A DNA stretch of 64,000 bases from an uncultured Chloroflexia bacterium. GTDB lineage: Bacteria > Chloroflexota > Limnocylindria > Limnocylindrales > CSP1-4. The first letter of the stretch is position 1. Every line of letters starts with the position of its first letter. The stretch lies in contig CAWKJL010000003.1 of the NCBI GenBank assembly GCA_963850045.1, forward strand, positions 965,288 to 1,029,287, written 5' to 3'. Under the pieces are notes generated by a model. That model had not been told where the DNA came from and made no database searches. It saw only the letters and a list, made by a program, of their open reading frames with translations. Positions 26,896 to 59,004 of the stretch are shown piece by piece. The position numbers and the translations under genes were made by a program.

Positions 26896-29468
<2,573 letters not shown>

Positions 29469-29527: not shown

Positions 29528-29554
29528 TGAAACATCGCCGACCATCGGGCGTCT
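29528..29554 (+). promoter_or_regulatory. Candidate ECF-type autoregulated promoter (TGAAAC - 16 nt - CGTCT)
   Basis: The -35-like TGAAAC is at 29528-29533. A 16-nt spacer follows, then CGTCT at 29550-29554, 8 nt before ATG 29563. This matches the generic GGAAC-N16/17-CGTC pattern of ECF promoters. Pattern match only. Confidence 0.45.
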
Positions 29555-29562
29555 CCTGCTGC

Positions 29563-30111
29563 ATGGATGACCTAGAGGTCCTGCCGGCCGCCATGGCCCT
29601 GCCGACCCCACGGACCCATGAGGTCGCCGGAGCGATCTACGACGACCTTCAGCGCGAGCTCTTCTCCTTCGCGCTGCACGCCTGCCGCGACCGCGAGACG
29701 GCCGAGGATCTCGTCCAGGAAGCGTTCGTCCGGCTGATGGTCGAGATCGACGCCGGGCGGATGCCGACCAACGTCCGTGCGTGGCTCTATCGGGTCGTCG
29801 CCAACCTCGCGGTCTCGCGGGGCCGGCGGGCGACCGTCGCAAGGCGGGGACTCCACGCGGTCCCCGAGCCCGAGGACGACCTTGGCCCGGAGCCCTCGTA
29901 CCTCGAGGGTGAGCGGCGCTCGGACCTCGAGGTGGTGCTCGGAGAGCTCGGCCCCGATGCCCGCACGGCCGTCCTGATGGCCGCGAACGGCTTCAGCGGC
30001 CTCGAGATCGCCGATGCCATCCGGCGCAGCCCGAGCGCCACCCGCACCCTGATGTGCCGCGCACGCATGCAACTCCGCGAACGCCTGACCGCGCTGGAGA
30101 CCACGGCATGA
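29563..30111 (+). CDS. ECF-family RNA polymerase sigma factor (sigma-70 regions 2 and 4)
   Basis: Region 2 is ETAEDLVQEAFVRLMVEIDAGRMPTNVRAWLYRVVANLAVSRGRR. The region 4 HTH is ARTAVLMAANGFSGLEIADAIRRSPSATRTLMCRARMQLRERL. The start could also be GTG 29527 or ATG 29593. Confidence 0.85.
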   Translation: MDDLEVLPAAMALPTPRTHEVAGAIYDDLQRELFSFALHACRDRETAEDLVQEAFVRLMVEIDAGRMPTNVRAWLYRVVANLAVSRGRRATVARRGLHAVPEPEDDLGPEPSYLEGERRSDLEVVLGELGPDARTAVLMAANGFSGLEIADAIRRSPSATRTLMCRARMQLRERLTALETTA

Positions 30112-33100
30112 TGGACCACGATCGAGCCCGCGAACTGGCGGCGGCCACCTTCGACTTCGAGCTCTCCGCCGCGGATCGGGCCGAGCTGCGCGACCACCTC
30201 GCCGGCTGCGCGCAGTGTCACGTCTTCAACGAAGGACTCGCGGCCGATGCCCGGGCGCTCGCTGGACTGCCGATCGCAGACGCGCCGCACGACCTCCGAT
30301 CGCGCATCGTGGACGGCGAGCCGGCCCCCGGACACGCGCCGGCGGCCGATCCCGGGACGATGGCGCCAAGGCGCCCCGCTCCGCTCGTGCCGGTCCGCTA
30401 CCGGCGACCGGCCGCCCTGGTCGCGAGCGCCGCCGTCGTCGTGGCGCTCATCGGCGGCCTGCTCCTCTGGGGGTCGCGACCGGGCGACGGCGGCGTCGCG
30501 GCGGTCAGCCCATCCCCCGACTCCCCCATCGCGTCCGGCTGGCGATCGCTCGGCCCGAACGCGTCACCCGGCGCCCCGGGCGCCCCCGGCGCGTCCGGCG
30601 AGCCCGGATCGGTCACGGCGACCGGTGATTGGCGCGCGGTCGCGGCGCTGGTCCCCGACGGCTCAGACTCCGCGGCCATCGACCTCGACGGCACGTTCCG
30701 GCTGACCAGCCTCGACGGCACGCCGCCGGCCGAGCTCGCGGCCCGCGTCCGCGTCGATCCGCCCGTCGCGCTCGCGGTGGCGCCCGAGCCGGACGGCAAC
30801 GGCGTCCGCCTGACGCCGAGCGAGGCGCTGACCCCGGGGACCGTCTACCGGTTCACGCTCGCCGGCCCGACCGGGGAGACCGTGGACTCGTGGGCCTTCC
30901 AGACGACCGCGCCGCTCCAGGTGGTCTCCACGCTCCCGGAGGACCACGAGACCAGCGTCCCGTTGAACACGGGCATCGAGATCACGTTCGACCAGGACGG
31001 CGTCACCGATGCCGCCTCGCACGTGACCATCGAGCCGACGACCTCGGGCCGCTTCGAGCAGCACGGCCGGGTCCTCGCCTTCGTCCCGGACGCCCTCAAG
31101 CCGGGCACGATCTACACGGTCACGGTCGCGCGCGGCACGACCGCCGGGCCGGGCGCCAAGCCGATGGCCAGCGACCTGCGGTTCCAGTTCGAGACCGACA
31201 AGCCGCAGCCCAGCGGTCAGGCTCGCGAACCCCAGTTCTCGGACGTCCTGTACGAATCCGGGACGTCCAGCCGCCCGGTCATCTCGATGTGGACGGACGA
31301 TGGCGAAGACACGCCGCCGGTCACGTCGGCCCAGCTGGACATCTACCGGTTCGGATCGCTCGATGCGGCGATCGCGGCCTACCGGCAACTGCAGGGATCC
31401 CCAGCTTGGGCGCAATGGGCCAACGAGCACCCCATCGACACCGGCCCGCTGACGAAGGTCGCCTCGCTCGATGCGAGTCTCGCGACACGTCCGCAGGGTG
31501 GCCCCTCGTGGACCGCGCTGCCGGAGCCGCTGCCGGCGGGCTGGTATCTCATCGAGCATCCGGCGACGCCCTACCCGGGCCAGGCCATCCTCCAGGTGAC
31601 CGATATCGCCTCGTATCTGCTGGTCACCGACACGAAGACCCTGCTCTGGACGAACGACCTCGCCACGGGCGGGCCGCTCCAGGGCGCGACGGTCGCCGTG
31701 GCCGGCGCCGGGTCGGATCTTGGCGCGACGGGCGCCGATGGCGTCCTCACGGTCGCGACCCCAGCCACGCTGCAGCCGCCAGCCCAGGACACCTGCGGGC
31801 AGGAGTGCATCAAGGTCGTCAGCGTCACCAAGGACGGTCGATCCTCCTTCGTCCCGGCATCGAACCCGAGCCCGGACGGCAAGGCCGGCTACGGCGGAGC
31901 GTCCGGCCACCGGTGGCTGACATTCGCGACCGATCGCACCCTCTATCGCCGCACGGACACGGTGAACCTGTGGGGGATGATCCGCGACCGCACCACGGGC
32001 AAGGTGCCGGCCGGCGTCGTGGTCAGGCTCCAGCCGATGGACGAGGACTTCGTGGCCACCGGTGCCCCGATCTCGACCTTGAGGCTGGCCCCACGGTCGA
32101 GCGGGGTGTTCAGCGGCAGCATCGCCCTGGCCGACGTCCCGGAAGGCTCGTACGAGCTCGAGCTGGTCGATGGGACCGAGGTGGTCCGGACGGCGAGCTT
32201 CCTGGTCGACCGGATCCTCAAGCCGGCGTACCGCATCGAGGTCGAGACCGGCCACCGTGCCTATGTCGTCGGCGAGCGGATCAAGTCGACGATCAAGGCC
32301 TCGTTCTTCGAGGGCTCACCGGTCCCGGGCGTCCCGCTTCGGGTGTCCCAGAGTGGCGACCGATCGGCCACGACCGACAAGACCGGCACGGCCGTCGTCA
32401 GGACGACCGCTCGACTCGAGGAGTCGAACGAGGGCGACCCGGAGGTCCAGACCGTCTCCGTGTCGCCGCGGCGAGCGGAGGAAGGGCAGATCCAGGGTTC
32501 CTCACGCGAGTTCCTCGTGTTCCCGAGCAGCCGCACGATCACGGCCGATTCCGGGATCTCGACGGGACGGGTCCGCGTCGCTGGCACCGTCAACGCGCTG
32601 GATCGCGCCGGTCTCGAACGCGCCCTCGCCGGCGATGCGTCGGTGTGGGAGGTGGATGCGCGCGGGGCGCCCGTCCGCGGCGTCACGGTGACCGCGACGT
32701 TCATGGAGCAGATCCCGGTCAAGACCCGGATCGGCACGGACTACGACATCATCGAGAAGACGACCGTGCCCGTCTACGAGTACACGACGAGGCAGCGAAA
32801 CGCCGGGTCGGTCCGAGTCAGGACGGACGCCAAGGGACGGTTCGCGGCATCGATCCCGGCCGGAAGCGGCCACCACGACTACACGGTCCTCCTCAAGGTC
32901 GCCGATCCGGACGGGCATACGGCACGGCGGACGACCTATGCCACCGACACTGCAGCACCGGTGTATGACGGATCGAGCCAGCCCGAACTGGTCCCGACGA
33001 ACGGCGTCGAACCGCCCGAGGGGTACAGCGTCGGCAGCCCGATCGATCTCACGCTGCGGGACCCGGCCCACCCGGCGGACACGACCAGTCGATACCTCTT

Positions 33101-35438
33101 CCACCTGACCCAGCAAGGCCTGCGCGACGTGGTCGTCCAGGGCTCACCGCGGTTCGTCGGCGCGTTCCAGTCGTGGGCGGTCCCGAACGTCTTCGTGACG
33201 GCCGTCCGCTTCACCGGGACCGGCTTCACCACGGCCGGGTACTCGGCCTCGTTCCGGACGGCGGACCGCAGCATCGACGTGCAGCTGACGCCGGACAAGG
33301 CGCGCTACGGCCCGCGCGACCAGGTGACGGTCGCGGTGCGGACGACCGATGCGGCCGGCAAGCCGATCGCGACGAGCGTCGTCCTCCGGGCCATCGACGA
33401 GAAGCTGTTCGCCATCGGCAGAGCCGAGGTCGACGACCCGCTCGGCGACATCTACGCGGCCCTCGACCCGGGCATCATCAGCAGCTACATCTCGCATCAG
33501 GGCCCGCCCGACTTCAGTGGCGGTGGCGGCGATACGACCGGCGGCGGCGGGGACGACTTCCGCGACGACTTCCGCGACAGCGTGCTGTTCAGGACGGTCG
33601 ATACCGGTGCGGACGGCCGGGCCTCGGCATCGTTCCGCCTCTCCGACGACCTGACGTCGTGGCGGATCCTCGGATCGGCGTTCACCACGGACGTCAAGGC
33701 CGGGACCGGTTCGACCGATATCGCCGTCGGGCTGCCGTTCTTCGTCGATGCCTCGATCGCGCCGGAGTATCTCTCACCGACCAGCCGACGATCCTCGCTC
33801 GCGCCTTCGGGACCGCCCTCCCGACGGGTGCCCGGGTGACGATCTCGGCGACCTCGCCGAGCCTCGGACTGAAGACCCGACCCGTCACGGTCGCCGCCTT
33901 CGCCGACGTCCCGATCCGGCTTCCGGCGCTGACCCTGGGCACGCACTCGGTGACGATCACGGCGACCTACGGGACCGGTCCGTCCGCCCGCACTGACCGG
34001 CTGGTCCGGACCTTCGCGGTCGTGCGTTCGCGCCTGGCCACGACCAGGACGGCCTATGTCGACCTCACCGGCACGATCCACCCCGACGGCGGTACCGGGC
34101 TGACGCGGGTGGTCGTCGCCGACAGCTCCGCCGGCCGTCACCTGCCGCTGCTGACCGAGCTGGCCGCCGGCGACGGCGTCCGCCTCGAGCGCGCCCTGGC
34201 GGCGGCGGCGGCCAGAGACCTGCTGATCTCTCGGTTCGGCGAGTCGGAAGCCGACGTCCCGGCCGGCGACTTCACCGGCGCTCGCTACCAGCAGGAGGAC
34301 GGCGGGATCTCGCTGGTCCCCGCCGGGAGCAGCGACCTCCAGACCTCCGTCCTGGTCGCCTTGACCGACCCGGGACCATTCTCCAAGGGCATGCTCACGC
34401 AGTACTTCCTGGCGGTCCAGGCCGACCCGAAGGCCACTCGCGAGCGCCAGGACTACGCCCTGGCCGGTCTGGCGGGTCTTCACGCCACGGTGCTCCCCCA
34501 GATCCAGGCGGCAGCAGCCGATGAGGGCCTGACCATCCGCGAGCGCCTGGTGCTCGGCATCGGGGCCGCCGCCCTGGGCGACGCGACGACGGCCCGGTCC
34601 ATCGCCCGCTCGCTGATCTCCCACTACGGCGAGCAGCAGGCCGGATGGGCCAGGCTGCGGGTCGGCACGACGACCGCGGACGGCGTCGAGGGCACCGCGT
34701 TGATGGCCATGCTCGCGGCGGCTACGGGCGACCCGCTCGCCCCGGCCTTCTGGGCCTATGTCGAGGCGAACCCCATGCCGGAACTGGTGGTCGACCTCCA
34801 TGCGATCGGCTACGTCGAACGGCTCCTCGAACGCCTTCCGCCGCGGCCCGCCAGCTTCGCCTACACGGTCGGCGGGACCCGCACGGTCGTGGACCTCAAG
34901 CCGGGCGGGACGTTCTCGATGGTCCTCACCGGGCCACAGCTGGCGTCCCTGGCCATCGAGCGCCTGACCGGGCTCGGTCGGCGTGACCACGGACTGGCGC
35001 GAGCCGGTCAAGGCGTCCACCATCGAACGCGATGCCGACATCACCGTGACCCGCACGGTCAGCCCGGGTGGCACCGTCAAGTCAGGCGACCTCGTCATCG
35101 TGAGCCTCAGGGTCCGGTTCGGGCAGCAGGCACCGACCGGCTGCCACCTGGTCACCGAGCTCGTGCCGTCCGGGCTGATCGCGGTCGGCCAGCTCGACGG
35201 CGTCTTCTACAGCGACGGCATCGACATGCCCGAGGGGGCCACGCCGCCGTTCGAGCAGATCGGCCAACGCCTGTCGTTCTGCGCCGAGAACGGGACGAAG
35301 GACCACGTCGACGACCTGCGCTACGAGGCCAGGGTCATCACACCCGGGACCTACACCTGGGAGCCGGCCGTCGTGGAGTCGCGGACCAGCGCGAACCATG
35401 CCGCCCTGACCGGGTCGAGGACGGTCACGATCCGCTGA
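30108..35438 (+). pseudogene. Zinc-binding anti-sigma (ZAS, zf-HC2) domain + TM helix + Ig-like domains + alpha-2-macroglobulin-like MG/bait/TED/receptor-binding ectodomain. About 1776 aa, with two frame disruptions near 33768-33776 and 34970-34972.
   Basis: The ATG overlaps the sigma-factor stop codon (ATGA). The N-terminal part LRDHLAGCAQCH carries Hx3Cx2C. The TM helix is AALVASAAVVVALIGGLLLW. The A2M hallmark FRDSVLFRTVDTGADGRASASFRLSDDLTSWRILGSAFTTDVKAGTGSTDIAVGLPFFVDASIAPEYL is present. The protein continues in ORF 33173-35563 (TDQPTILARAF...) and ends in ORF 34983-35438 (A2M receptor-domain-like, ...DLRYEARVITPGTYTWEPAVVES). Confidence 0.75.
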
Positions 35439-35447
35439 TCCGCCGGG

Positions 35448-36344
35448 CTAGCCCGCGACGGGCGTCGGGGTGGGGGTCGGCGTGGGCGTCGGCGTGGGTG
35501 TCGGCGTCGGTGGTGTCGGGGCCGGCCCCTCCTGCTGGCGCCACAGGTACTCGCGCAGCGTGAGGTTGCTGTCGTGGACCTTCGCGGCCGCGTCCCGCCC
35601 GACGTAGCGGTAGTGCCACGGCTCGTACATGTAGCACGTGACCGCGGTCTTGCCCTTGGGGTAGCTCATGATGAAGCCGTACTTCCACGCGTTCGCGGCC
35701 ATCCACGTGCCGGCCTTGCTCGTGGCCCAGTCGGACACGTTCCACGGGTCGGCGCCGCCGTAGCTCTTGAAGTCGAGGGCCGTGCCGAGCTGGTGCTCGC
35801 TGTGCCCCGCCCTGGCGCTCTCCTTGAGCGCGAAGGCGTAGCCGTGCGCCCGCACCCACGACGCGAAGGTCGCCTTCTGGGTCGTATAGCTGCGGAAGCC
35901 CGAGACCACGGCCATGCGCGCACCGGCGATGCGGGCCGCGGTGGCCATCGCCTTCAGGTCGGCGATCACCAGCAGCCGGACGCGTTCTCCACCGTTGAGC
36001 CCGGCCATCGTGGTCCAGCGCAGGTCCGTCGGCGCATAGCCCGAGCCGAGCCGCAGGCTGGAGTCCAGCACCGTGCGTGGCCATTGGCTGTACGAGCGCT
36101 GCTTGGTGAGGGTGTCCGCGACCTTGCATGCCGGAAGCGCCGGGGCCGTCGGGGCCGCCGAGGCTGTCGCCGCGAGCCCGGTCGCCAGCGCCACGACGAC
36201 GGCGAGGACGATCAGCGACGCAGCGGAAGCGCGGCCACGGGAGCGGGCGCGAGGCCCGGCGATGGTCGACGGGAAGGGCATGACGCGGCGAATCGTACGA
36301 CGGGGTATCGATCGATGGCCACTCCCCCGAACGTACCGGGGCAT
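35448..36344 (-). CDS. D-alanyl-D-alanine carboxypeptidase, VanY / peptidase M15B family, with a C-terminal (Thr-Pro)n tail
   Basis: Zn-ligand motifs are SGFRSY, SEHQLGTALDF and YEPWHYRYVG. A signal/TM segment LIVLAVVVALATGLAATASA is present. The start may be the internal ATG at 36281. Confidence 0.85.
   Translation of the reverse strand: MPRYVRGSGHRSIPRRTIRRVMPFPSTIAGPRARSRGRASAASLIVLAVVVALATGLAATASAAPTAPALPACKVADTLTKQRSYSQWPRTVLDSSLRLGSGYAPTDLRWTTMAGLNGGERVRLLVIADLKAMATAARIAGARMAVVSGFRSYTTQKATFASWVRAHGYAFALKESARAGHSEHQLGTALDFKSYGGADPWNVSDWATSKAGTWMAANAWKYGFIMSYPKGKTAVTCYMYEPWHYRYVGRDAAAKVHDSNLTLREYLWRQQEGPAPTPPTPTPTPTPTPTPTPTPVAG
35457..35525 (-). repeat. Coding (ACN-CCN)n microsatellite-like repeat encoding PTPPTPTPTPTPTPTPTPTP
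   Basis: On the plus strand this reads as repeated ggcgtcgg/ggtgtcgg units at the 3' end of the VanY gene. Confidence 0.8.
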
Positions 36345-36372: not shown

Positions 36373-37946
36373 CTAGGGCGCGACGCTCGGTGTCGGCTCG
36401 GCCGGCAGCGACGGCGTCGGCTTCACGGTCGGCTTCGCGGTCGGCTTCTTCGTCGGCTTCGGAGTCGCCTTGGGCCTCGACGTCTTGTTGCCACAACTGC
36501 TCACGCCGCTGCCGCTCGGGGCCTTGGTGCTGCCCTTCGGGACCGCGTAGGTCTTGACCGGGAGCGATCCGTCGGTCGGGAACAGGGCTTTGGCGAGCGC
36601 CCGGATCTTCGCGATGTTCGGGATCTGGATCGACCCGCGCTGGTCATTTCCAGCGCCGACCAGCGGGTGGGCGATGACGGCCCGGTACGTGCCGGCCCGT
36701 CCGATCTTGGTGGCCGCATCGGCCAGGTCCGGCAGGAGCTTGCGGGGGACATTGGTGGTCACGGTCTGGCCGATCGCCTTGAGCAGGCCGATCGGATCGT
36801 TGACGAAGCCGCCCTTGACGACGCGGTCGCGGACGCCCGAGAGGACCTCCTGCTGGCGGGCGGCCCGGGTGAAGTCGCTCTCGCCGGCGGCCTTGCGCAC
36901 GCGCGCGTACGCCAGCGCCTGGTTCCCGGTGAGGTGGTGCTTGCCGGCCGTGATGGCGAAGCCGTTGGTGAACCCGTACTCGCGGTAGCGGACGTCGCAG
37001 AAGGCGTGGGCGACGTTCACGTCCACTCCGCCAAGGGTATTGACGACTTGACGAAGCCCTGCAGGGTCACCGCGGCGTAGTAGTCGACCTTGATGCCGAG
37101 CAGCTTGCCGAGGGCGCCGGTCAGGACGTCGAACCCGGTCCCGTCGTTTTGTGGGAACTGCTTCGGGTGCAGTCGGACATATGAGACGAGCCCGTTGATC
37201 TTGCCGCGGAACGTGCGGCCGTCCGCCAGCGGCACGTCGACCATGTCGCGCGGCACCGACACCATCGAGACGGTCTCGGTCGCCGGGTCCATCGAGACGA
37301 CGATCATCGTGTCGGTCGCGTACGTGTGACGGCCCACCCCGGCATCGACGCCGACGATCACGCCGGTGATCCGCGGGTCGGCGGGCACCGGCGTCGGCGA
37401 GGGCGAGGCGCTCGGCTCACCCGACGGCGAGGGCGACGCCGGGATGAGGTTGGCCGGGTCGGCCTCCGGCTGCTGCGACGGCAGGATCGCGGTGGCCGAC
37501 GGCTCGACGAAGACCTCGTCGGCGGTCTCGCGGGCGACCTCGGTCGCGTACCCGGCGTACGCCTGCGGCACGATGATCACGAGGAGGAGCAGGACGATCG
37601 GGAGGACGTCGCCCTTGCCCATCCGCGGCAGGCCGGGTGCGAACAGGCTGGATGCGACCGCGATGAGGCGCCACACGAGCAGGACGCCCTGGAACGCGAG
37701 CAGCCCCCAGATGACCTCGGATTCGAGGAGCGTGGCGACGAGCCGGGGTCCCGAGGTCGTCAGCGCGAGGTAGACGGCCACCGCCAGGGCCAGGATCGTC
37801 GGGGTCAGGAAGATCACGCCCAGCAGCCGCCGGCCGGCCACGACGTGGCCGAGCCCGGGGACGAAGGCGTCGAGGATGGCGGGGACGTAACGCGAGCGTC
37901 GGCTCGGCGTGGCGGACGCGACAGTGTCCGCGGCGTCGTCTGTCAC
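36373..37946 (-). pseudogene. LytR-CpsA-Psr (LCP) family cell-wall glycopolymer transferase, with a frame disruption near 37047-37050
   Basis: After N-terminal TM helices comes TDTMIVVSMDPATETVSMVSVPRDMVDVPL...GFDVLTGALGKLLGIKVDYYAAVTLQGFVK. The next frame continues as (LVNTLGG)VDVNVAHAF...GKHHLTGNQALAYARVRK...DFTRAARQQEVL. The C-terminal tail is Lys/Pro/Thr-rich. Confidence 0.85.
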
Positions 37947-38261
37947 CGGCGCAGGGTAGCAGCACTCGCCCGGACAGGCGCTGGAGGCGCCGGTCGGTCC
38001 TATGCCCGACTAGTACGGTCGGGCGGGGTAAGCGGCCCACCCAGTGAGGTAGTGTGAGGTCAGCGGGGGCTGGACACATCTTCGACGATGCCGCCTCCGA
38101 GGGACCCTTGACCTCAAGAACCAGGCCCGCGTCCCACCGGTTCATGGTGTTCTGTCAGGTCATCGCGGTGATCTCGTGGCTCGCCAGCCCGGTCGCCGGA
38201 CTTGCCGCGAGCCCCGCCCCGACGCCCGATGCGACGCCGACCGCGACCCAGCCCGCCGTCG

Positions 38262-38430
38262 ACCCGAGCGCCGAGCCCACCGCCGAGCCGACACGCCGAG
38301 CCCACCGCCGAGCCCACCGCCGAGCCGACCGCCGAGCCGACGCCGAGCCGAGCGCCGAGCCGACCGCCGAGCCGAGCGCCGAGCCGAGCGCGGAGCCGAG
38401 CGCGGAGCCCACGCCGGAGCCGACCCCCGC
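38262..38430 (+). repeat. Tandem 12-nt coding repeat (gccgagccSacc/agc) encoding (AEPT/AEPS)n
   Basis: Direct reading of the sequence shows about 13 units. The segment 38292-38342 is read out of frame (RRAHRRAHRRADRRAD) between a +1 and a -1 event. Confidence 0.85.
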
Positions 38431-39930
38431 GGCCACCCCGGCGCCCGTCACCGACACGTACATCGTGACCTTCGCGCCGGGCACCTCGGCCGCCGCCCAG
38501 GCGGCCAGCCTGGCCGCCGCCGGGGCGACCGCCACGGACGTCGATCGCGGTCCTGCGCATGCAGGTGGTCGACATCGCCCGCGGCTCGGACACGATCGCG
38601 GCCCTGCGCGCCGACGGCAACGTCACCCGGGTCGAGGCCGACCGGGTGCGCAGCGCCGAGGCGGCCCCCGACGACCCGCGCTACGACGACCAGTGGTCGC
38701 TGCGGACCATCGGCTGGGACCAGCTCTACGGCTCCGTCCAGCCGCAGGGCAGCGCGGTGGTGGCCGTGCTCGACACCGGGGTCGACGGGAGCACCCCCGA
38801 CCTGGCCGGCCAGCTGGTCCCCGGCACCAGCGTCCTCGACGGCTCCGACGGGCGGACCGACCCCAACGGCCACGGCACGGCCATGGCCGGCATCATCGCC
38901 GCCGCCAGCGGCAACGGCACGGCCATCGCCGGCATCGGCTACCAGGGCGTCCGGGTCATGCCCGTCACGGTCCTCGGGCCCGACGGCCTGGGCCAGGACA
39001 GCGACATCATCGCGGGCATCGTCTGGGCGGTCGGCCACGGCGCCGACGTGATCAACATGTCGTTCAGCAACCCGGGCTTCTCGACCGGCCTGCAGGCGGC
39101 CGTCGACTACGCCTGGGCGCACGACGTGGTGGTCGTCGCGGCGGCCGGCAACGACGCCTCGCACACGGCCACCTTCCCGGCCGGCGACCGCGCCGTGGTG
39201 GGCGTCTCCAACACCGACCGGGACGACCGCCTCGACCCGTCCTCGAACGACGGCGACAGCGTCTTCCTGGCCGCCCCGGGCAGCGACATCGCGACGCTCC
39301 TGCCGGGCGGCGGCACGACCAGCGTGTCGGGCACCTCGGCCTCCTCGGCCGAGGTGGCCGCCGCGGCCGCCCTGCTGCGGGCCATCGACCCGGGCGCCAG
39401 CAACGGGGTCATCGTGTCGCGCCTGGCGCGCACCGCCGCCGCGGTCGGCACGGTCGCCCAGACCGGCAACGGCCGGCTCGACCTGGCCCGCGCCGCGGCC
39501 GACACGGGGACCGACTTCGTGCAGCCCGTGGGCGCCACCCCGATCGGCTCGGGCGGGCCGTTCGTGGGGCCGTACGTGATCGCCGCGGCCGCGGTGAATG
39601 CCGCGACCACCACGCTGAACGGCGTGATCACGCCGATCTCGGTCGCCCCGGGTGGCTCGATCACCCTCGTGATGAACGTCACGACCAATGGGGCGGGCGC
39701 CGCCGCCCGCTGGTACTCGTCGCGCTGGGCGCTGGCCACTGCGCCGCCAGCGGTCGCTGCGATGACCTGCGTGAACCACCCGAACCATGACGGCCCGGGC
39801 ACGTTCTCCGAGACCATGACCATCACCGCGCCGGCCGCGGCCGGGAACTACAACCTCTACCTACTCGCCTACAACGCCGACGACTGCTTGACCGGGCCGA
39901 GCGCCCTGTTCACCCGCGCGAACGCCCTGG

Positions 39931-42900
39931 ACAACGTCGCCCCGACGGCCACGATCGATCTCCGGGCGGCATCGGACAGCGGCGTCTCGAATTCGGACGA
40001 CCTGACCAACGCTGCGAGCCCCATCTTCGACGTGACCTTCAGCGAGACGGTAGCAGGGCTGGCCGCGGGCGACTTCTCCAACGTCGGGACGGCAACCGGC
40101 TGTGTCTTCGGCGCCCCGGCCGGCGCGGCCGCTGCGTACAACGTCACGGTCACGGGCTGTTCTGAGGGCACCCTCATCGTGCGGCTCGCCGCCAACGGGG
40201 TCCTCGACACCGCCGGCAACGGCAATGCCCTGACGAACGGGCCGACCGTCACGATCGACCGGACCGGGCCGAGCGTCACCATCAACCAGGCGGCCGCGCA
40301 GCCGGACCCGACCAACGCCAGCCCGATCAACTACACGGTCGTCTTCAGCGAGCCCGCCACCGGCTTCATCACCGGCGACGTCACGGTCGCGGGGACCTCA
40401 GGCGGGGCCAAGACCGGGACGGTCACGGGCGGCCCGACCACCTACAACGTGGCGGTCACCGGGATGACCACGTCGGGCACCGTCATCGCCACGATCGCGG
40501 CGGCGCGGGCGACCGACCTGGCCGGCAACAACAACATCGCGTCCACCTCGACCGACAACACGGTGACCTGGGACGTGGTCGCCCCGACCGTGACCATCAA
40601 CCAGGCGGCGGGCCAGCCTGACCCGACCAATGGGGCCACGATCAACTACACGGTCGTGTTCAGCAAGCCGGTCACCGGCTTCACGACGGGCGATGTGACC
40701 GTCGCCGGGACCTCGGGCGGGGTCAAGACCGGCACGGTCACGGGCGGCCCGACCACCTACAACGTGGCGGTCACCGGGATGACGTCGTCCGGGACGGTCA
40801 TCGCCACGATCGCCGGAGGCGTCGCGATCGACGCCGCGGGCAACAACAACGCCGCGTCGACCTCGGTCGACAACACGGTCACGTGGGACAACACCGCGCC
40901 GACGGTCACCATCAACCAGGCGGCCGCACAGGTCGACCCGACCAACGGGGCGACGATCAACTTCACGGTCACGTTCAGCGAGGCGGTGGTCGGCTTCGCG
41001 ACCGGCGACGTGTCCTTCACCGGCAGCACGGCCGGTGGCGCCCTGGTCGGGACCGTCAGCGGCGCCGGTCCCGTCTACAACGTCGCGGTCACAGGGATGA
41101 CCAGCTCGGGTACCGTCGTCGCGTCGCTCGGTGCCGGCGTGGCCGCAGATCCGGCCGGCAACCCCAACGCCGCATCCACCTCGGCCGACAACACGGTCAC
41201 GTGGGACAACGTCGCGCCGACGGTCACCATCAACCAGGCAGCGGCCCAGGCCGACCCGACGAAGACCAGCCCGATCAACTTCACCGTCGTCTTCAGCGAG
41301 CCGGTGCTCAACTTCGTCACGGGCGACGTCACGTTCGGTGGGACCGCGGGCGGGGCCAAGGTGGGCACCGTCACCGGCGCCGGGACGACCTACAACGTGG
41401 CCGTCACCGGGATGACCACCACCGGGACGGTCATCGCCACCATCACGGCGGCCAAGGCGAACGACCCCGCCGGCAACAACAACCTGGCGTCCACGTCCAC
41501 GGACAACACGGTCACCTGGGACGTCACCGCCCCGACCGTGACGATCAACCAGGCGGTCGGGCCAGGCTGACCCGACCAACGGGGCGACGATCAATTACAC
41601 GGTCACGTTCAACGAGGCCGTCACCGGGTTCACCACGGGCGACGTGACGATCGCCGGGACCTCGGGCGGGATCAAGACCGGGACGGTCACCGGCGGCCCG
41701 ATCATCTACAACGTCGCGGTCACCGGCATGACGTCGTCCGGCACCGTCATCGCCACGGTCGCGGCCAGCGTCGCGACGGACCTCGCCGGCAACAACAACG
41801 CCGCCTCCACCTCGGTCGACAACACCGTGACGTGGGACAACGTCGCCCCGACGGTGACGATCAACCAGGCGGCCGCACAGGTCGACCCGACGAACGCGAG
41901 CCCGATCAACTTCACGGTCACGTTCAGTGAGGCCGCCACCGGGTTCACGACCGGTGACGTCACGTTCGGCGGCACCGCCGGCGGGCCTCTCGTCGGCACC
42001 GTCACCGGCGGCCCGATCATCTACAACGTCGCGGTCACGGGCATGACCATCTGCGGGCACGGTCATCGCCACGCTCGGCGCCGGTGTCGCGACGGACCTC
42101 GCCGGCAACAACAACGCCGCCTCGACCTCGGTCGACAACACCGTGACCTGGGACAACGTCGCCCCGACGGCCGTCATCGACCTCCGGGCCGCGTCGGACA
42201 GCGGCGTTTCGAACTCGGACGACATCACCAACGCCGCGAGCCTGATCTTCGATGTGACCTTCAGCGAGTCCGTGGTCGGGCTGGCAGCGAACGACTTCTC
42301 CAACGTCGGGACCGCGACGGGTTGCGTCGTGGGCGCACCGGCCGGCGCCGGCGCGGCCTATTCGGTGACGTTGACCGCCTGCGCGCAGGGAACGGTGATC
42401 CTCCGGCTGCGTGCCGCCGCCGTGACCGACGCGGCGACCAACGCCAATGCCGTGACCGACGGCCCGACCGTGACCGTCGACCGGACCGGGCCGACCGTCA
42501 CGATCAACCAGGCCGCCGCGCAGCCCGACCCGACCAGCGTGAGCCCGATCAACTACACGGTCGTGTTCAACGAGGCTGCGGCCGGCTTTGCCACGGGCGA
42601 CGTCACGGTCGGCGGGACCTCGGGCGGGGTCAAGACCGGGGCCGTGACCGGTGGCCCGGCGACCTACAACGTGGCGGTCAGCGGGATGACCACGTCCGGC
42701 ACGGTGGTCGCGACCATCGCGGCCGGTGTCGCGACCGACCTCGCCGGGAACGCCAGCGCCGCCGCGACCACCACCGACAACATCGTCACCTGGGACGTCA
42801 TCAGCCCGACCGTCACGATCAACCAGGCGGCCGCCCAGCCCGATCCGACCAATGCCAGTCCGATCAACTTCACGGTCACCTTCAGCGAGGCCGCCACCGG

Positions 42901-43745
42901 GTTCACGACCGGCGACGTCACGTTCGGCGGCACCGCCGGAGGGCCCCTCGTCGGCACGGTCACCGGCGGCCCGATCATCTACAACGTGGCGGTCACCGGG
43001 ATGACCGACTGCGGGCACGGTCATCGCCACGCTCGGCGCCGGGGTCGCGACGGACCTTGCCGGCAACGCGAACGCCGCCTCGACCTCGGTCGACAACACC
43101 GTGACCTGGGACAACGTCGCCCCGAGCGTGACCATCAACCAGGCGGCCGCGCAGCCGGACCCGACCAATGCCAGTCCGATCAACTTCACGGTCGTCTTCA
43201 GCGAGCCGGTGACCGGCTTCATCACCGGCGACGTGACCCTCGCGGGAACCGCAGGCGGGGCGCTCACGGGCACGGTCACCGGCGGCCCGACCACGTACAA
43301 CGTGGCCGTGACCGGCATGACCACGTCGGGCACGGTCGTCGCCACGATCGCGGCCGCCAAGGCCTTGGACCTCGCCGGCAACGACAACACGGCGTCCACC
43401 TCGGCCGACAACACCGTCACCTGGGACAACGTTGCGCCTACGGTCACGATCAACCAGGCGGCCGCGCAGGCCGACCCGACCAACGCGAGCCCGATCAACT
43501 ACACGGTGGTGTTCAGCGAGCCGGTCACCGGCTTCGTCACCGGCGACGTGACGGTCGGTGGGACATCGGGCGGGGCCAAGACCGGCACGGTCACGGGCGG
43601 CCCGACCACCTACAACGTCGCCGTGACCGGCATGACCACCTCGGGCACCGTCATCGCCACGATCGCGGCGGCCCGAGCGACCGACCTGGCCGGCAACAAC
43701 AACACCGCGTCCACCTCGACCGACAACACGGTGACCTGGGACCGG
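39931..43745 (+). repeat. Coding tandem array of roughly 315-nt (105-aa) Ig-like domain repeats arranged as two super-repeats. Each super-repeat has one 'IDLRAASDSGVSNSDD' type unit followed by 6 or 4 'TINQAAAQPDPTN' type units.
   Basis: The atcaaccagg motif recurs at 40281, 40596, 40911, 41229, 41544 and 41860, and again at 42503, 42818, 43134 and 43449 (period 315-318 nt). The B-type units start near 39931 and 42150. Confidence 0.85.
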
Positions 43746-45437
43746 GCGACCCACCTCGCCTTCCAGCAGCAGCCGACCGACACCGTCCACGGGAGCGCGA
43801 TCAGTCCGACCGTGACGGTCGCCATCCTCGATGACAACGGCCTGGTCGTGACCGAGAAGGCCGGGTCCATCACGCTGACCCCGTCGGCGCCGGGTGCCCT
43901 CGAGGTCTCGCCGGTGACGATCGCGGTGGTCAACGGCGTCGCGACGTTCACCGGGCTGATCGCCGATCAGGTCGGCACCTACACCCTGGACGCGACCAGT
44001 GCCGGGCTCGTCGGGACGACGAGCGCGTCGTTCGACGTCACCACGGCCGCCCTGATCGTCACGGCCACCAACCGGTCCAAGGTCTACGGCCAGACCGTCG
44101 TGTTCGCGGGCACGGAGTTCACGACCAGCGGGCTGCTCGGGACCGACACGGTCGACAGCGTCACGCTGACGAGCCCGGGTGCCGCCTCGACGGCGACCGT
44201 CGCAGGCGGCCCGTACGCCATCACGCCGTCGGCCGCCGTCGGGAGCGGCCTCTCGAACTACGCCATCACCTACGTCGCCGGCAGCCTGACCGTGACCACC
44301 GCCCCGCTGACGATCGAGGCCGATGATCGGACGAAGACGTACGGCCAGACGGTCGTCTTCGCCGGGACCGAGTTCACGACCAGCGGCCTGCTCAACGGCG
44401 ACACCGTGACGAGCGTGACCCTGACGAGCCTCGGGGCGGCGCCCACCGCCACGGTCGCCGGCAGCCCGTACGCCATCACCCCGAGCGCCGCGATCGGCAC
44501 CGGGCTCTCGAACTACGCGATCGCCTACGCCGACGGCGACCTGACCGTGACCACCGCCCTGCTGACGGTGACGGCGGACGATCGCTCGAAGACGTACGGG
44601 CAGACCGTGGTCTTCGCCGGGACCGAGTTCAGCACGACCGGCCTGCTCAATGCCGACGCCGTCGACACGGTCACCTTGACGAGCGGCGGCGCCCCGTCGA
44701 CCGCCACGGTCGCCGGCAGCCCGTACGCGATCACCCCGTCGGCTGCGACCGGGACTGGTCTCTCGAACTACGCGATCACGTACGTCGACGGCGCCCTGAC
44801 GGTGACCGCGGCCACCCTGACGATCACCGCGCACGACCGATCGAAGGTCTACGGCCAGACGGTCGTCTTCGCCGGAACGGAGTTCAGCGCGACCGGCCTG
44901 CTCAATGCGGACACCGTCACGAGCGTCACGCTGACCAGCCCGGGCGCCGTCGCGACCGCGACCGTGGCCGGCAGCCCGTACGCCATCACCCCGTCGGCTG
45001 CGGTCGGCACTGGCCTGGGCAACTACGCGATCACGTATGTCGACGGCGCGCTGACCGTGACCCCGGCCGCGCTCACCGATCACCGCGGACGACCGGACGA
45101 AGACGTACGGCCAGACGGTCGTCTTCGCCGGCACCGAGTTCTCGACCACGGGTCTCCTCAATGCCGACGTGGTCGACAGCGTGACCCTCACGAGCCCGGG
45201 CGCCCTCGCGACCGCCACGGTCGCCGGCAGCCCCTACTTCATCACGCCGTCGGCGGCCGTCGGGACCGGGCTCGGCAACTACACGATCACGTATGCGACC
45301 GGCGAGCTGACGGTGACCAAGGCCGCGCTGACCATCACCGCCGACGACCGTTCGAAGGTGTACGGCACCGTGGCGGTCTTCGCCGGCACCGAGTTCTCGA
45401 CCGCCGGCCTCCTGAACGCTGATGCGGTCGATACCGT

Positions 45438-46045
45438 CACGCTGACCAGCCCGGGCGCGCTCGCCACCGCGACCGTGGCCGGCAGCCCGTACCCGATCAC
45501 CCCGTCGGCCGCGACCGGCACCGGCCTCGGCAACTACACGATCACCTACGTCGACGGCGAGCTGACCGTGACCCAGGCGACGGCGGTCATCGTGGTGACC
45601 GGCTACTCGGTCGTCTACGACGCGCTGCCCCACACCGCCACGGGCACGGCCACGGGCGTGCTCGGCGAGGACCTCTCGGCCGGCCTCGACCTGACGGCCA
45701 CGACGCACACCGCGGTGGGCGCCTCGACCGACCCCTGGACCTTCACCGACCCGGCCGGCAACTACGCGCCGGACGCGGGCACGGTCGACACCGAGATCAC
45801 CCCCGCCCCGCTGACCGTCACCGCCGACGACCGGACCAAGACCTACGGCCAGACGGTGGTCTTCGCCGGCACCGAGTTCACCACCAGCGGCCTGCTCGGG
45901 GCCGACAGCGTCGACAGCGTCACGCTCACGAGCGCGGGCGCCGCGCCGACCGCCACCGTGGCCGGCAGCCCGTACGCGATCACCCCGAGCGCCGCGACCG
46001 GCACCGGGCCTCGGCAACTACACGATCACCTATGTCGACGGCGCG
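45438..46045 (+). repeat. Copy 1 of a near-identical intragenic segmental duplication of about 610 bp
   Basis: It aligns base for base with 46953-47567 (offset 1515 nt). I saw only a handful of substitutions by eye, including the 15-nt divergent patch (ctcggcaactacacg versus ctgtcgaactacgcg) shortly before the end. Confidence 0.8.
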
Positions 46046-51885: not shown

Positions 51886-51893
51886 CGGTGCGA

Positions 51894-52568: not shown

Positions 52569-52645
52569 ATCCGGCATCCTGCGCCGCGCATGCGGGGGAG
52601 TCGAGGCCTTGCGGGCCTGTCTTTGAAGCTTCTCATCCGGGCCAC

Positions 52646-58890: not shown

Positions 58891-59004
58891 GAGACCCAGA
58901 TGAATGAGAGGGGCGCGTCGACGGCTCCCGCGCGCCGATGCGGCTACGATCGGTCCAGAGGCGGCCCGGGACCGGGCCGGCCAGCGACATGAGGGTGTGT
59001 CGGC

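What the first reader, a model, noticed from the sequence alone, without database searches (positions are those of the whole stretch)
29528..35438. ECF sigma factor co-transcribed with a zinc anti-sigma domain fused to a full alpha-2-macroglobulin-like ectodomain
What the sequence shows. The sigma-factor stop codon and the next ATG overlap (ATGA at 30108-30111). The downstream protein starts with a textbook ZAS motif (H-x3-C-x2-C in LRDHLAGCAQCH), followed by one TM helix and then about 1650 extracytoplasmic residues. These residues carry the hallmarks of bacterial A2M: MG-type Ig domains, a Gly/Asp-rich bait-like stretch (SGGGGDTTGGGGDDFRDDFRD), the conserved F-x-D-S-x-x-F...LSDDLTSWR...GLPFFVD block, a TED-like helical region and a receptor-binding-like C-terminal domain. 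A TGAAAC-N16-CGTCT motif sits just upstream of the sigma gene.

Established knowledge. A2Ms are protease traps that change conformation after bait cleavage. Anti-sigma factors release their sigma factor after extracytoplasmic signals or regulated proteolysis.

Inference. This could be a protease-sensing switch in which attack on the A2M bait is transduced into ECF sigma activation. I am not aware of a described anti-sigma/A2M fusion.

Caveat. There are two single-base frame disruptions, at about 33770 and 34971.
Basis: partly seen in the sequence, partly recalled or inferred. Interest (0 to 1): 0.7.

Follow-up and report, generated by a model that had tools for sequence, protein, structure and literature searches.

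The report
Anti-sigma factor fused to macroglobulin ectodomain
A soil Chloroflexota genome encodes a stress sigma factor followed by a membrane protein whose inner end is a zinc anti-sigma domain and whose outer end is a complete but thioester-less alpha-2-macroglobulin; the fusion is conserved and apparently undescribed, and may let the cell sense protease attack at its surface.

Summary
An ECF sigma gene (29563-30111) overlaps by ATGA a 1775-residue gene (30108-35438). That gene encodes a zinc anti-sigma domain (four invariant ligands; related to RsiW, RslA, ChrR), one membrane helix, a disordered tether and a full bacterial alpha-2-macroglobulin (A2M) fold. AlphaFold2 gave pLDDT 87; Foldseek matched ECAM and Salmonella A2M at about 1e-46, and the N-terminal part matched ECAM MG0-NIE-MG1.

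Three corrections:
- The thioester CxEQ is absent from all 93 aligned relatives.
- The Gly/Asp "bait" loop is disordered and correctly placed but strongly conserved, unlike a classical bait.
- The two frame breaks are single-base indels. At least eight further sites and a multiply shifted repeat gene in the window show the same defect, so they are almost certainly assembly errors.

The fusion is conserved in one clade of Limnocylindria MAGs. Of 23 fused loci, 20 have the sigma gene directly upstream. All 20 carry an AAC-N16-CGTC promoter with the start codon exactly 9 nt after it, which suggests leaderless, autoregulated transcription. Unfused, membrane-anchored paralogs often carry the same promoter.

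Protease sensing by regulated proteolysis is plausible but untested. I found no published description. Verdict: a new variant of a known kind, interest about 0.6.

The parts
29528..29562 (+). ECF-type promoter. TGAAAC (-35) is at 29528-33, followed by a 16-nt spacer and CGTCT (-10) at 29550-54. Nine further bases lead to the sigma start codon, so the mRNA is probably leaderless.
   Evidence: This is the only strict match in the window (0.18 expected) and the top PWM score (25.0, next 16.8). The motif is present upstream of sigma in 20 of 20 related loci, against 3.8% per region by chance. An in-frame start codon lies exactly 9 nt after CGTC in 20 of 20.
29563..30111 (+). ECF (group 4) sigma factor, 182 aa
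   Evidence: Pfam Sigma70_r2 and Sigma70_r4_2. NCBIfam TIGR02937 sigma70-ECF scores 58 bits against a cut-off of 42.9. The closest solved relatives are M. tuberculosis SigH/SigE and B. subtilis SigW.
30108..35438 (+). The anti-sigma/A2M fusion gene. It encodes 1775 aa once the two single-base frame breaks are bridged. Its start overlaps the sigma stop codon (ATGA).
   Evidence: More than 150 homologs were found, most 1750-1800 aa long and covering 100% of the query.
30108..30317 (+). Cytoplasmic class-I zinc anti-sigma domain (residues 1-70). It has four predicted helices and the ligands H4, H30, C34 and C37.
   Evidence: H4, L10, H30, C34 and C37 are invariant in 57 fused homologs. The N-terminal profile matches RsiW (6.5e-8), RslA (5.7e-6) and ChrR (2.6e-3). 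Pfam zf-HC2 hits 32 of 32 members. AlphaFold2 places helices at 4-16, 21-33, 35-52 and 61-70 with pLDDT above 90.
30411..30470 (+). Single transmembrane helix (residues 102-121). Arg-rich sequence precedes it, so the N-terminus is inside the cell.
   Evidence: The sequence is RYRRPAALVASAAVVVALIGGLLLW. Positions A108, A109, V112, A113, G117, L119 and W121 are conserved within the fused clade.
30471..30632 (+). Pro/Ser/Gly-rich tether outside the membrane (residues 122-175), predicted disordered
   Evidence: pLDDT is below 50 over residues 113-171. The segment is variable in sequence and length.
30642..31877 (+). N-terminal ectodomain (residues 179-590). It resembles MG0-NIE-MG1 of bacterial A2M and includes a Big_5 domain.
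   Evidence: Pfam Big_5 at 267-363, E 7.4e-15. The best Foldseek match is ECAM MG0-NIE-MG1, 4zjg, E 2.5e-13.
31878..33494 (+). Macroglobulin (MG) domain array and bait-region domain (residues 591-1129). It contains the most variable, disordered loop of the protein at residues 941-970 (32928-33017).
   Evidence: Pfam MG2 at 606-700 and A2M_BRD at 971-1102. The model is low-confidence at residues 359-367, which equal protein residues 948-956.
33495..33578 (+). Disordered Gly/Asp-rich loop at the canonical bait position (residues 1130-1157), with a conserved GGDT(T/A)GGG(G)D core
   Evidence: It lies between the Pfam A2M_BRD and A2M hits. pLDDT is below 50. Column entropy is 0.6-0.9 bits against a mean of 1.76, and the core is also conserved in unfused paralogs.
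33773..33774 (+). Frame break 1: a 1-nt deletion relative to the nearest relative (CTC-TCA against CTCGTCA)
34124..34834 (+). Helical TED-like domain (residues 1339-1575) without a thioester. The site reads PAGSSDLQ instead of (P)YGCxEQ.
   Evidence: AlphaFold2 predicts helices at model residues 750-986. Foldseek matches A2M, C3 and TEP proteins. No CxEQ is present in 93 relatives.
34972..34973 (+). Frame break 2: a 1-nt insertion relative to the nearest relative (GGGCTCG against GGG-TCG). It restores the original frame.
   Evidence: Identity to P0001 before, between and after the breaks is 77.8%, 80.7% and 76.0%.
35055..35381 (+). C-terminal bMG10 (receptor-binding-like) domain, residues 1649-1757
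   Evidence: Pfam bMG10, E 7e-6, 26.7 bits against a cut-off of 26.2. The ECAM match covers this region.

Best explanation
What it is (high confidence). This is a two-gene operon. A conserved ECF-type promoter probably drives a leaderless transcript encoding an ECF sigma factor and, translationally coupled to it, a single-pass membrane protein. The cytoplasmic N-terminus of that protein is a class-I zinc anti-sigma domain. Its 1650-residue extracytoplasmic part is a complete bacterial alpha-2-macroglobulin fold (MG0-NIE-MG1 through to TED and MG10) that has lost the thioester.

How it most likely works (inferred, moderate confidence).
1. At rest the anti-sigma domain holds the sigma factor at the membrane.
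2. The very large ectodomain keeps the membrane helix out of reach of the site-2 intramembrane protease.
3. Foreign proteases at the cell surface cut the ectodomain. Candidate sites are the disordered loop at the bait position, the hypervariable loop at 941-970, and the Pro/Ser/Gly tether.
4. The cut, perhaps followed by an A2M-type conformational change, removes or loosens the ectodomain.
5. The remaining stub is degraded by regulated intramembrane proteolysis and the sigma factor is released.
6. The sigma factor transcribes its own operon and the unfused A2M-like paralogs that carry the same promoter. Surface A2M is thus replaced as it is consumed.

The two frame breaks in this copy are most likely assembly errors.
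For: - Operon and coupling. ATGA overlap in the window. The sigma gene is directly upstream in 20 of the 23 loci that carry the anti-sigma domain, mostly with the same overlap.
- Promoter. AA[CT]-N16-CGTC is upstream of sigma in 20 of 20 loci, against 3.8% by chance, with the start codon 9 nt after it in 20 of 20.
- The A2M gene is a target. The same motif sits directly upstream of fused genes that lack an adjacent sigma gene (L007, L018) and of a derivative with the anti-sigma domain deleted (L082). With a PWM built only from sigma-upstream sites, 16 of 44 unfused paralogs score at least 12 upstream, against 0 of 44 in each of two controls.
- Anti-sigma domain. Four invariant zinc ligands, a predicted four-helix fold, and profile matches to RsiW, RslA and ChrR. 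RsiW is the textbook anti-sigma factor controlled by regulated proteolysis (own knowledge).
- Ectodomain. Confident A2M topology. The loop at the bait position, the 941-970 loop and the tether are all predicted disordered, so they should be accessible to proteases.
- Thioester-less A2Ms can still work. MagD, which lacks the thioester, is cut in its bait and traps the protease non-covalently (PMC5764988).
- Selection. The fusion is maintained across relatives of 45-78% identity, in one clade derived from unfused, membrane-anchored A2M-like proteins.
- Frame breaks. Other genes in the window have single Pfam domains running across frame changes. The nearest relative has its own shift elsewhere in the gene. 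Sequence identity does not fall after the breaks.
Against: - No experiment exists for any family member, and all sources are uncultured MAGs.
- The thioester is absent, so covalent trapping as in ECAM is excluded.
- The loop at the bait position is conserved rather than hypervariable. That fits a specific partner or a structural role better than a broad-spectrum bait.
- Three fused genes lack a same-strand sigma gene directly upstream: L007 and L018 have none, and L042 has a divergent sigma gene with its own anti-sigma gene. The domain has also been lost secondarily. The coupling is therefore not obligatory.
- Whether the genome has a site-2 protease was not checked.
- Zinc anti-sigma domains can also respond to cytoplasmic redox signals. 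RslA, the second-best match, does so (own knowledge).
Confidence: 0.45

Rival explanations
1. The A2M ectodomain is only the product, not the sensor. The sigma factor is released by another signal: oxidation or zinc loss at the cytoplasmic zinc anti-sigma domain (as in RsrA or RslA), or an unrelated envelope stress. The ectodomain is a surface protease shield. Fusion simply ties its synthesis one-to-one to the sigma factor and anchors it in the membrane.
For: All four zinc ligands are invariant. RslA, a membrane-bound redox-responsive zinc anti-sigma factor (own knowledge), is the second-best solved match. Unfused paralogs carry the same promoter, so A2M-like proteins are outputs of this sigma family whether fused or not. 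Related sigma genes next to unfused paralogs have their own anti-sigma factor with a different ectodomain (PD40 propeller in L033), so sensing can be done by another domain.
Against: This does not explain why a 1650-residue ectodomain stays joined to the anti-sigma domain across a whole clade, when unfused paralogs show that a plain membrane anchor is enough. Many zinc anti-sigma domains, such as RsiW and ChrR, are not redox sensors (own knowledge).
Confidence: 0.25
2. The A2M fold has been re-used as a sensor of something other than proteases, or as a structural surface protein. It might detect a specific partner protein, cell-wall state or a metal through the conserved Gly/Asp loop. Signalling would then follow ligand binding, as lysozyme binding to RsiV does.
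For: The thioester is lost in the whole family. The loop at the bait position has a conserved GGDT(T/A)GGG(G)D core, shared by fused and unfused clades, which is atypical of a bait. Cell-wall genes (VanY, LCP) lie just downstream in this window.
Against: The complete A2M domain set is kept, including the bait-region domain, TED and MG10. The downstream neighbours are not conserved in other loci. No ligand-binding site can be named.
Confidence: 0.15
3. In this particular genome the fusion gene is a pseudogene. The two frame breaks are real, so only the first 1222 correct residues, followed by a short out-of-frame tail (1243 in all), are made.
For: The sequence as given contains two single-base indels. 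The public gene call for this contig stops at 1243 aa (P0002).
Against: At least eight other sites in the same 64 kb show the same defect inside single conserved Pfam domains (DAO, DUF2461, HisKA, LCP, FNR, GT1), and one repeat gene has seven or more jumps. The close relatives are long-read Nanopore MAGs (PMC12313526), and one has its own shift at a different place. Codon-position GC follows the shifted frame. Identity to relatives is unchanged after the breaks. The two shifts cancel exactly.
Confidence: 0.05

Closest known systems
SigW-RsiW of Bacillus subtilis (ECF sigma factor with a zinc anti-sigma factor controlled by regulated intramembrane proteolysis)
   Same: The sigma and anti-sigma genes form one operon. 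The anti-sigma factor is single-pass with its N-terminus inside. Its N-terminal domain carries H-x3-C-x2-C and is the best solved match to the window's domain (5wuq_C, E 6.5e-8). SigW is among the solved relatives of the sigma factor. The promoter is of the same AAC...CGT type (own knowledge).
   Different: RsiW has a small ectodomain of roughly 100 residues, trimmed by the dedicated protease PrsW. Here the ectodomain is a 1650-residue A2M fold, and no site-1 protease is known. Proteolytic control has not been shown for this family.
ECAM (E. coli YfhM) and Salmonella A2M: bacterial type I alpha-2-macroglobulins
   Same: These are the best structural matches over the whole ectodomain (5a42 at 4.8e-47, 4u48 at 4e-46, 4ziq with TM-score 0.53). 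The match includes the bacteria-specific N-terminal MG0-NIE-MG1 module (4zjg). Both are anchored to the cytoplasmic membrane facing outwards.
   Different: ECAM has the CxEQ thioester, a lipoprotein anchor and a neighbouring pbpC gene, and occurs in Gram-negative bacteria (PMC5764988). The window protein has no thioester, a transmembrane helix with a cytoplasmic anti-sigma domain, and no conserved neighbour other than the sigma gene. It comes from Chloroflexota. Sequence identity to ECAM is only about 15%.
MagD of Pseudomonas aeruginosa: bacterial type II alpha-2-macroglobulin
   Same: It lacks the thioester yet keeps the A2M architecture and associates with the cytoplasmic membrane. It shows that a thioester-less A2M can be cut in its bait and hold a protease non-covalently (PMC5764988).
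   Different: [quoted passage not shown] No such operon is present here, and MagD has no link to a sigma factor.
Other ECF anti-sigma factors with large or unusual sensor domains, such as DdvA of Myxococcus xanthus (a CHAT-domain protein) and the PD40-propeller anti-sigma factors beside paralogous sigma genes in Limnocylindria
   Same: Each has a class-I zinc anti-sigma domain, one membrane helix and a large C-terminal domain. DdvA gives a weak match to the window's N-terminal profile (E 0.04). The Limnocylindria paralog aligns with the window's N-terminal 138 residues (anti-sigma domain through membrane helix) at 31% identity, E 1e-9.
   Different: The sensor domains are unrelated to A2M.

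Membership tests
ECF (group 4) sigma-70 factors | Only the sigma-2 and sigma-4 domains are present; regions 1 and 3 are absent | tested here: met
   Pfam finds Sigma70_r2 (residues 26-90) and Sigma70_r4_2 (122-171) and nothing else in 182 aa. NCBIfam TIGR02937 scores above its cut-off.
ECF (group 4) sigma-70 factors | Co-transcribed cognate anti-sigma factor and an autoregulated promoter with AAC in the -35 and CGT in the -10 | tested here: met
   ATGA overlap with the anti-sigma gene. The AA[CT]-N16-CGTC motif is conserved in 20 of 20 loci at a fixed 9 nt from the start codon. Promoter activity itself cannot be tested here.
Class I (zinc-binding, ZAS) anti-sigma domain | H-x3-C-x2-C plus a fourth upstream ligand | tested here: met
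   H4, H30, C34 and C37 are invariant in 57 fused homologs. The spacing resembles that of ChrR (own knowledge). Pfam zf-HC2 scores above its cut-off on the isolated domain and hits 32 of 32 members.
Class I (zinc-binding, ZAS) anti-sigma domain | Four-helix anti-sigma fold related to solved examples | tested here: met
   AlphaFold2 predicts four helices with pLDDT above 90. The profile matches RsiW (6.5e-8), RslA (5.7e-6) and ChrR (2.6e-3).
Class I (zinc-binding, ZAS) anti-sigma domain | Binds and inhibits its sigma factor; binds zinc | not testable with these tools
   This needs two-hybrid or co-purification assays and metal analysis.
Anti-sigma factors controlled by regulated intramembrane proteolysis (RseA, RsiW, RsiV type) | Single-pass membrane protein with the N-terminus inside and an ectodomain that blocks the site-2 protease | tested here: met
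   One hydrophobic helix at 102-121 is preceded by an Arg-rich segment and followed by 1654 residues outside the membrane.
Anti-sigma factors controlled by regulated intramembrane proteolysis (RseA, RsiW, RsiV type) | Sequential site-1 and site-2 cleavage on signal; a site-2 protease in the genome | not tested
   No cleavage data exist. The window was not screened for an M50 protease, and the rest of the genome is not available.
Alpha-2-macroglobulin / complement C3 / TEP superfamily | An array of MG domains, a bait-region domain, a CUB/TED insert and a C-terminal MG/receptor-binding domain | tested here: met
   Pfam MG2, A2M_BRD, A2M and bMG10. The AlphaFold2 model has pLDDT 87.1 and pTM 0.78. 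The listed best 50 Foldseek matches are all A2M, C3, C4, C5, TEP1, CD109 or A2ML1. The N-terminal part matches ECAM MG0-NIE-MG1.
Alpha-2-macroglobulin / complement C3 / TEP superfamily | Exposed, protease-sensitive bait region, typically hypervariable | tested here: inconclusive
   A disordered loop lies at the right position (residues 1130-1157), but its core is strongly conserved. A second disordered and truly hypervariable loop lies at 941-970. Cleavage has not been tested.
Alpha-2-macroglobulin / complement C3 / TEP superfamily | Internal thioester (CxEQ) in the TED | tested here: not met
   None of 93 aligned relatives has CxEQ at the TED site. The aligned site reads LPY[ASG]SSDLE, and PAGSSDLQ in the window.
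Bacterial type I A2M (ECAM / SaA2M) | Thioester, lipoprotein anchor and an adjacent pbpC gene | tested here: not met
   There is no thioester. The anchor is a transmembrane helix; a lipobox occurs only in a few unfused paralogs. No flanking gene family apart from sigma recurs in more than about 5 of 21 fused loci (contexts). The defining features are taken from PMC5764988.
Bacterial type II A2M (MagD) | Thioester-less A2M encoded in the six-gene magABCDEF operon | tested here: not met
   The lack of a thioester is shared, but no mag-like conserved neighbours are present. The defining features are taken from PMC5764988.

The most novel reading that the evidence does not exclude
The A2M fold works here as a true transmembrane receptor for proteolytic attack. 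Cleavage of an exposed loop would trigger the large conformational change typical of A2M proteins, and that change would be coupled, directly or through regulated proteolysis, to release of a sigma factor. This would be the first case of an A2M/complement-type protein wired to transcription.
Probability: 0.2. Interest if true: 0.85.

Novelty: new variant of a known kind. Interest (0 to 1): 0.62.

Why it matters
- **For sigma-factor signalling.** ECF sigma/anti-sigma pairs are a major route of bacterial signalling, yet the signal is unknown for most groups. A sensor domain whose biochemistry is well understood (cut by a protease, then change shape) gives a concrete, testable hypothesis for one family.
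- **For A2M biology.** Bacterial A2Ms have been described in Gram-negative bacteria, as periplasmic shields linked to PBP1c or the Mag complex. This family would extend them to Chloroflexota, with a transmembrane anchor, no thioester and a direct link to gene regulation.
- **For the open question of thioester-less (type II) A2Ms.** What these proteins are for is unresolved, and this family bears on it.
- **For practical use.** A protease-triggered sigma switch, if real, would be a compact part for engineered sensing.

Tried and rejected
- **Real pseudogene.** Rejected as the main reading. Frame shifts are spread over the whole window and lie inside single conserved domains.
- **Generic Ig-repeat surface protein.** Rejected by the structure model and fold search.
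- **Member of type I (ECAM) or type II (MagD) bacterial A2Ms.** Rejected. The thioester, pbpC adjacency and mag operon are all missing.
- **Hypervariable bait.** Not supported. The Gly/Asp loop is conserved.
- **Other conserved partner genes.** Clustering the flanking ORFs of 21 fused and 56 unfused loci found none apart from sigma.
- **Literature.** Searches for anti-sigma with macroglobulin, ECF with macroglobulin, zf-HC2 with A2M, macroglobulin with Chloroflexi, and Limnocylindria with sigma factor found nothing relevant. Neither did the main text of the ECF re-classification paper or of the class-I anti-sigma survey. The supplements of the re-classification paper were not available.
- **Source of the window.** Looking up the window's own ORF gave nothing.
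- **Regulon in the window.** A PWM scan found no convincing second promoter. The next best site lies inside a glycosyltransferase gene.
- **Juxtamembrane motif.** A conserved (V/I)A-x-x-x-PS motif after the membrane helix was considered as a possible signal-peptidase site. It also occurs in unfused members of the derived clade and was not pursued.
- **Not done.** ECF group assignment, a search for independent A2M/anti-sigma fusions outside this family, and a sigma:anti-sigma complex prediction.

Full report
**1. What is in the sequence**

The window has about 72% G+C. An ORF at 29563-30111 (+) encodes a 182-aa protein. Pfam finds Sigma70_r2 and Sigma70_r4_2 in it and nothing else, and it passes the NCBIfam sigma70-ECF model. 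Its closest solved relatives are M. tuberculosis SigH/SigE and B. subtilis SigW.

Its stop codon overlaps the next start codon (ATGA, 30108-30111). The downstream reading frame runs to about 33773, continues in another frame to about 34972, and returns to the first frame until the stop at 35438. Bridging the two breaks gives a 1775-residue protein.

**2. The frame breaks**

Compared with the closest relative (78% protein identity), the breaks are one missing base after 33773 and one extra base at about 34972. Both lie in DNA that is otherwise 87% identical.

They are not peculiar to this gene. I built a codon-position GC model of the whole window and then joined the translations on either side of each frame change. 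Single Pfam domains run across frame changes in several unrelated genes:

| Position | Strand | Domain or gene |
|---|---|---|
| ~12350 | - | DAO / glycerol-3-phosphate dehydrogenase |
| ~15291 | + | DUF2461 |
| ~37025 | - | LytR_cpsA_psr |
| ~51168 | - | HisKA |

Four further frame changes are inferred from the GC model and continuous joined translations, without a domain spanning the junction: a glycosyltransferase (~20210), a ferredoxin reductase whose FAD- and NAD-binding domains flank the break (~49727), and two membrane proteins (~54860 and ~59752). The repeat gene at 45080-48363 has seven or more frame jumps.

Further points:
- The 78% relative has its own shift at a different place, between the anti-sigma domain and the membrane helix.
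- Many relatives come from Nanopore long-read soil MAGs of the Microflora Danica project (PMC12313526).
- Identity to relatives is 77.8% before the breaks, 80.7% between them and 76.0% after them.

I conclude that the breaks are assembly errors. I rate a real pseudogene at about 5%.

**3. The N-terminal domain**

Residues 1-70 contain H30-x3-C34-x2-C37 and an upstream H4. All four are invariant in 57 fused homologs.
- The isolated domain passes Pfam zf-HC2, as do 32 of 32 homologs tested.
- A profile of the domain matches the solved anti-sigma factors RsiW (6.5e-8), RslA (5.7e-6) and ChrR (2.6e-3).
- AlphaFold2 predicts four helices with pLDDT above 90.

An Arg-rich segment precedes one hydrophobic helix (residues 102-121), which places the N-terminus in the cytoplasm. 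Several helix positions are conserved within the fused clade. A disordered Pro/Ser/Gly tether of about 50 residues follows.

**4. The ectodomain**

- Pfam finds Big_5, MG2, A2M_BRD, A2M and bMG10, with weaker bMG3 and MG4 hits.
- A family profile finds Salmonella A2M and E. coli ECAM among solved structures.
- An AlphaFold2 model of residues 590-1775 is confident (pLDDT 87.1, pTM 0.78). Its best matches are ECAM (5a42, 4.8e-47), Salmonella A2M (4u48, 4e-46) and trypsin-activated ECAM (4ziq, TM-score 0.53). Complement C3/C4/C5, A2ML1, CD109 and TEP1 follow. The model contains a helical TED-like domain.
- A model of residues 1-600 matches the bacteria-specific MG0-NIE-MG1 module of ECAM (4zjg, 2.5e-13).

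The ectodomain is therefore a complete bacterial-type A2M and not a string of generic Ig domains.

It departs from classical A2M in two ways:
- None of 93 relatives has the CxEQ thioester. The aligned site reads LPY[ASG]SSDLE.
- The Gly/Asp-rich stretch lies at the bait position, between the A2M_BRD and A2M hits, and is predicted disordered. Its GGDT(T/A)GGG(G)D core is nevertheless among the best conserved parts of the protein, in fused and unfused relatives alike. The most variable disordered loop is at residues 941-970.

**5. Conservation and origin**

- A protein search found more than 150 relatives, most 1750-1800 aa long and covering the full query. The sources name them only 'Ig-like domain-containing protein' or 'alpha-2-macroglobulin'.
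- A scan of one genome per species found 202 relatives. Nearly all of the 79 loci kept come from Chloroflexota/Limnocylindria MAGs; four are labelled Verrucomicrobiia, Methylomirabilota or Actinomycetota.
- 22 loci showed the anti-sigma domain by tblastn. L042 has it behind a frame shift, which makes 23.
- 20 of these 23 have the sigma gene directly upstream on the same strand.
- L007 and L018 have no adjacent sigma gene. L042 has a divergent sigma gene that comes with its own anti-sigma gene.
- Among the 56 unfused loci with an N-terminal ectodomain hit, none has a sigma gene directly upstream on the same strand. Three have a related sigma gene (48-49% identity) nearby, each with its own zinc anti-sigma factor. 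One of those carries a PD40 propeller ectodomain.
- In a distance tree, the basal branches are unfused proteins with a short signal anchor or a lipobox. The fused forms fill one derived clade with scattered losses. One loss (L082) is an in-frame deletion of the anti-sigma core that leaves the first ten residues joined to the membrane helix.
- No other flanking gene is conserved.

**6. Promoter**

The TGAAAC-N16-CGTCT site at 29528-29554 is the only strict match in the window (0.18 expected) and by far the best PWM score.
- The motif AA[CT]-N16-CGTC is present upstream of the sigma gene in 20 of 20 loci, against 3.8% per region by chance.
- In all 20, an in-frame ATG or GTG lies exactly 9 nt after CGTC. 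This points to a leaderless transcript.
- The same motif lies directly upstream of the fused genes that lack a neighbouring sigma gene and of the derivative with the anti-sigma domain deleted.
- With a PWM trained only on the sigma-upstream sites, 16 of 44 unfused paralogs score at least 12 upstream. The figure is 0 of 44 inside the gene and 0 of 44 on the opposite strand.

The A2M-like genes therefore look like targets of this sigma family. The association appears to be older than the fusion.

**7. Mechanism**

Shown by computation:
- operon structure;
- a conserved ECF-type promoter placed for a leaderless mRNA;
- a bona fide zinc anti-sigma domain inside the cell;
- a complete thioester-less A2M fold outside the cell;
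- conservation of the fusion;
- the same promoter on unfused paralogs.

Inferred:
- The anti-sigma domain sequesters the sigma factor.
- The huge ectodomain shields the membrane helix from the site-2 protease. The size-exclusion idea comes from RseA/RseP (own knowledge).
- Foreign proteases cut exposed loops or the tether.
- The stub is degraded and the sigma factor is freed.
- More sigma factor and more A2M are then made.

MagD shows that a thioester-less bacterial A2M can still be cut in its bait and hold a protease (PMC5764988).

The main rivals are these:
- The ectodomain is only an output and the signal is sensed elsewhere, for example by redox chemistry at the zinc site.
- The A2M fold senses something other than proteases. 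The conserved Gly/Asp loop fits this reading.

**8. Comparison with known systems, and novelty**

The system works like a SigW-RsiW-type pair, and its ectodomain is built like ECAM. It fails the defining tests for type I A2M (thioester, lipoprotein anchor, pbpC) and for type II A2M (mag operon).

I found no description of an anti-sigma/A2M fusion in the searchable literature. The searches were by keyword over open-access papers, and architecture databases could not be queried.

I class it as a new variant of a known kind: an ECF anti-sigma factor with a new sensor domain, or equally a bacterial A2M with a new anchoring and regulatory context.

Interest is 0.62. The architecture is solid and would surprise specialists in both fields. 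The function is untested and the organisms are uncultured.

Noticed in passing
window ~12350, ~15291, ~20210, ~37025, ~49727, ~51168, ~54860, ~59752, and 45080-48363: Single-base frame shifts occur throughout the window. At ~12350, ~15291, ~37025 and ~51168 a single Pfam domain (DAO, DUF2461, LCP, HisKA) runs across the frame change; the other sites (including FNR and GT1) are inferred from the codon-position GC model and continuous joined translations. One repeat gene has seven or more frame jumps. This is typical of an error-prone long-read assembly, and any gene call in this window should be checked for it.
   Followed up: yes
window 38122-48363 (+): A giant secreted subtilase (Peptidase_S8) followed by many Big_12 and MBG_2 repeats. 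It is more than 3000 aa long and multiply frame-shifted. It lies 2.7 kb downstream of the A2M fusion gene. It is also present in the 78% relative (L001) but not in L002, so a functional link to the A2M gene is unproven.
   Followed up: partly
window 35520-36218 (-) and 36394-37886 (-): A VanY-type D-Ala-D-Ala carboxypeptidase and a LytR_cpsA_psr cell-wall ligase (split by a frame shift) lie directly downstream on the opposite strand. These neighbours are not conserved in other loci.
   Followed up: partly
window 29550-29565; loci L001-L075 upstream of sigma: The sigma start codon (ATG or GTG) lies exactly 9 nt after the -10 CGTC in 20 of 20 loci. This implies a leaderless sigma mRNA. Most relatives have an extension of 6-10 codons before the conserved MDD that the window copy lacks.
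   Followed up: yes
L082:1386-1560 (protein P0053): This derivative has lost the anti-sigma core by an in-frame deletion. Its N-terminus MIDRERVRELL is joined directly to the membrane helix, and the ECF-type promoter is retained upstream.
   Followed up: partly
L033:213-2337 (-), L042:2002-3689 (-), L044:9045-11323 (+), L077:9934-11666 (-): Sigma genes of 48-49% identity lie next to A2M-like genes (unfused in L033, L044 and L077; fused in L042). Each comes with its own zinc anti-sigma factor carrying a different ectodomain (PD40 propeller in L033). This suggests an ancestral arrangement of a sigma/anti-sigma pair beside a sigma-controlled A2M gene.
   Followed up: partly
window 33495-33578 (residues 1130-1157): A conserved GGDT(T/A)GGG(G)D motif sits in a disordered loop at the bait position, in fused and unfused clades alike. 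It resembles a single RTX-like GGxGxD unit (from memory, untested). Its role is unknown.
   Followed up: partly
model of residues 590-1775: The AlphaFold2 model superposes better on protease-activated ECAM (4ziq, TM-score 0.53) than on native ECAM (5a42, 0.34). This could be a modelling bias, or it could reflect the lack of a thioester 'lock'.
   Followed up: no
window 50980-52638 (-) and 58999-60517 (+): Two pairs of an OmpR-type response regulator and a histidine kinase. Both kinase genes are interrupted by frame shifts.
   Followed up: no
window 27099-29459 (+): By inspection of the translated sequence, these look like MetY-like O-acetylhomoserine sulfhydrylase and MetX-like homoserine O-acetyltransferase genes. 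They lie directly upstream of the promoter, as in relative L001 (where Pfam finds Cys_Met_Meta_PP and Abhydrolase_1) but not L002.
   Followed up: no
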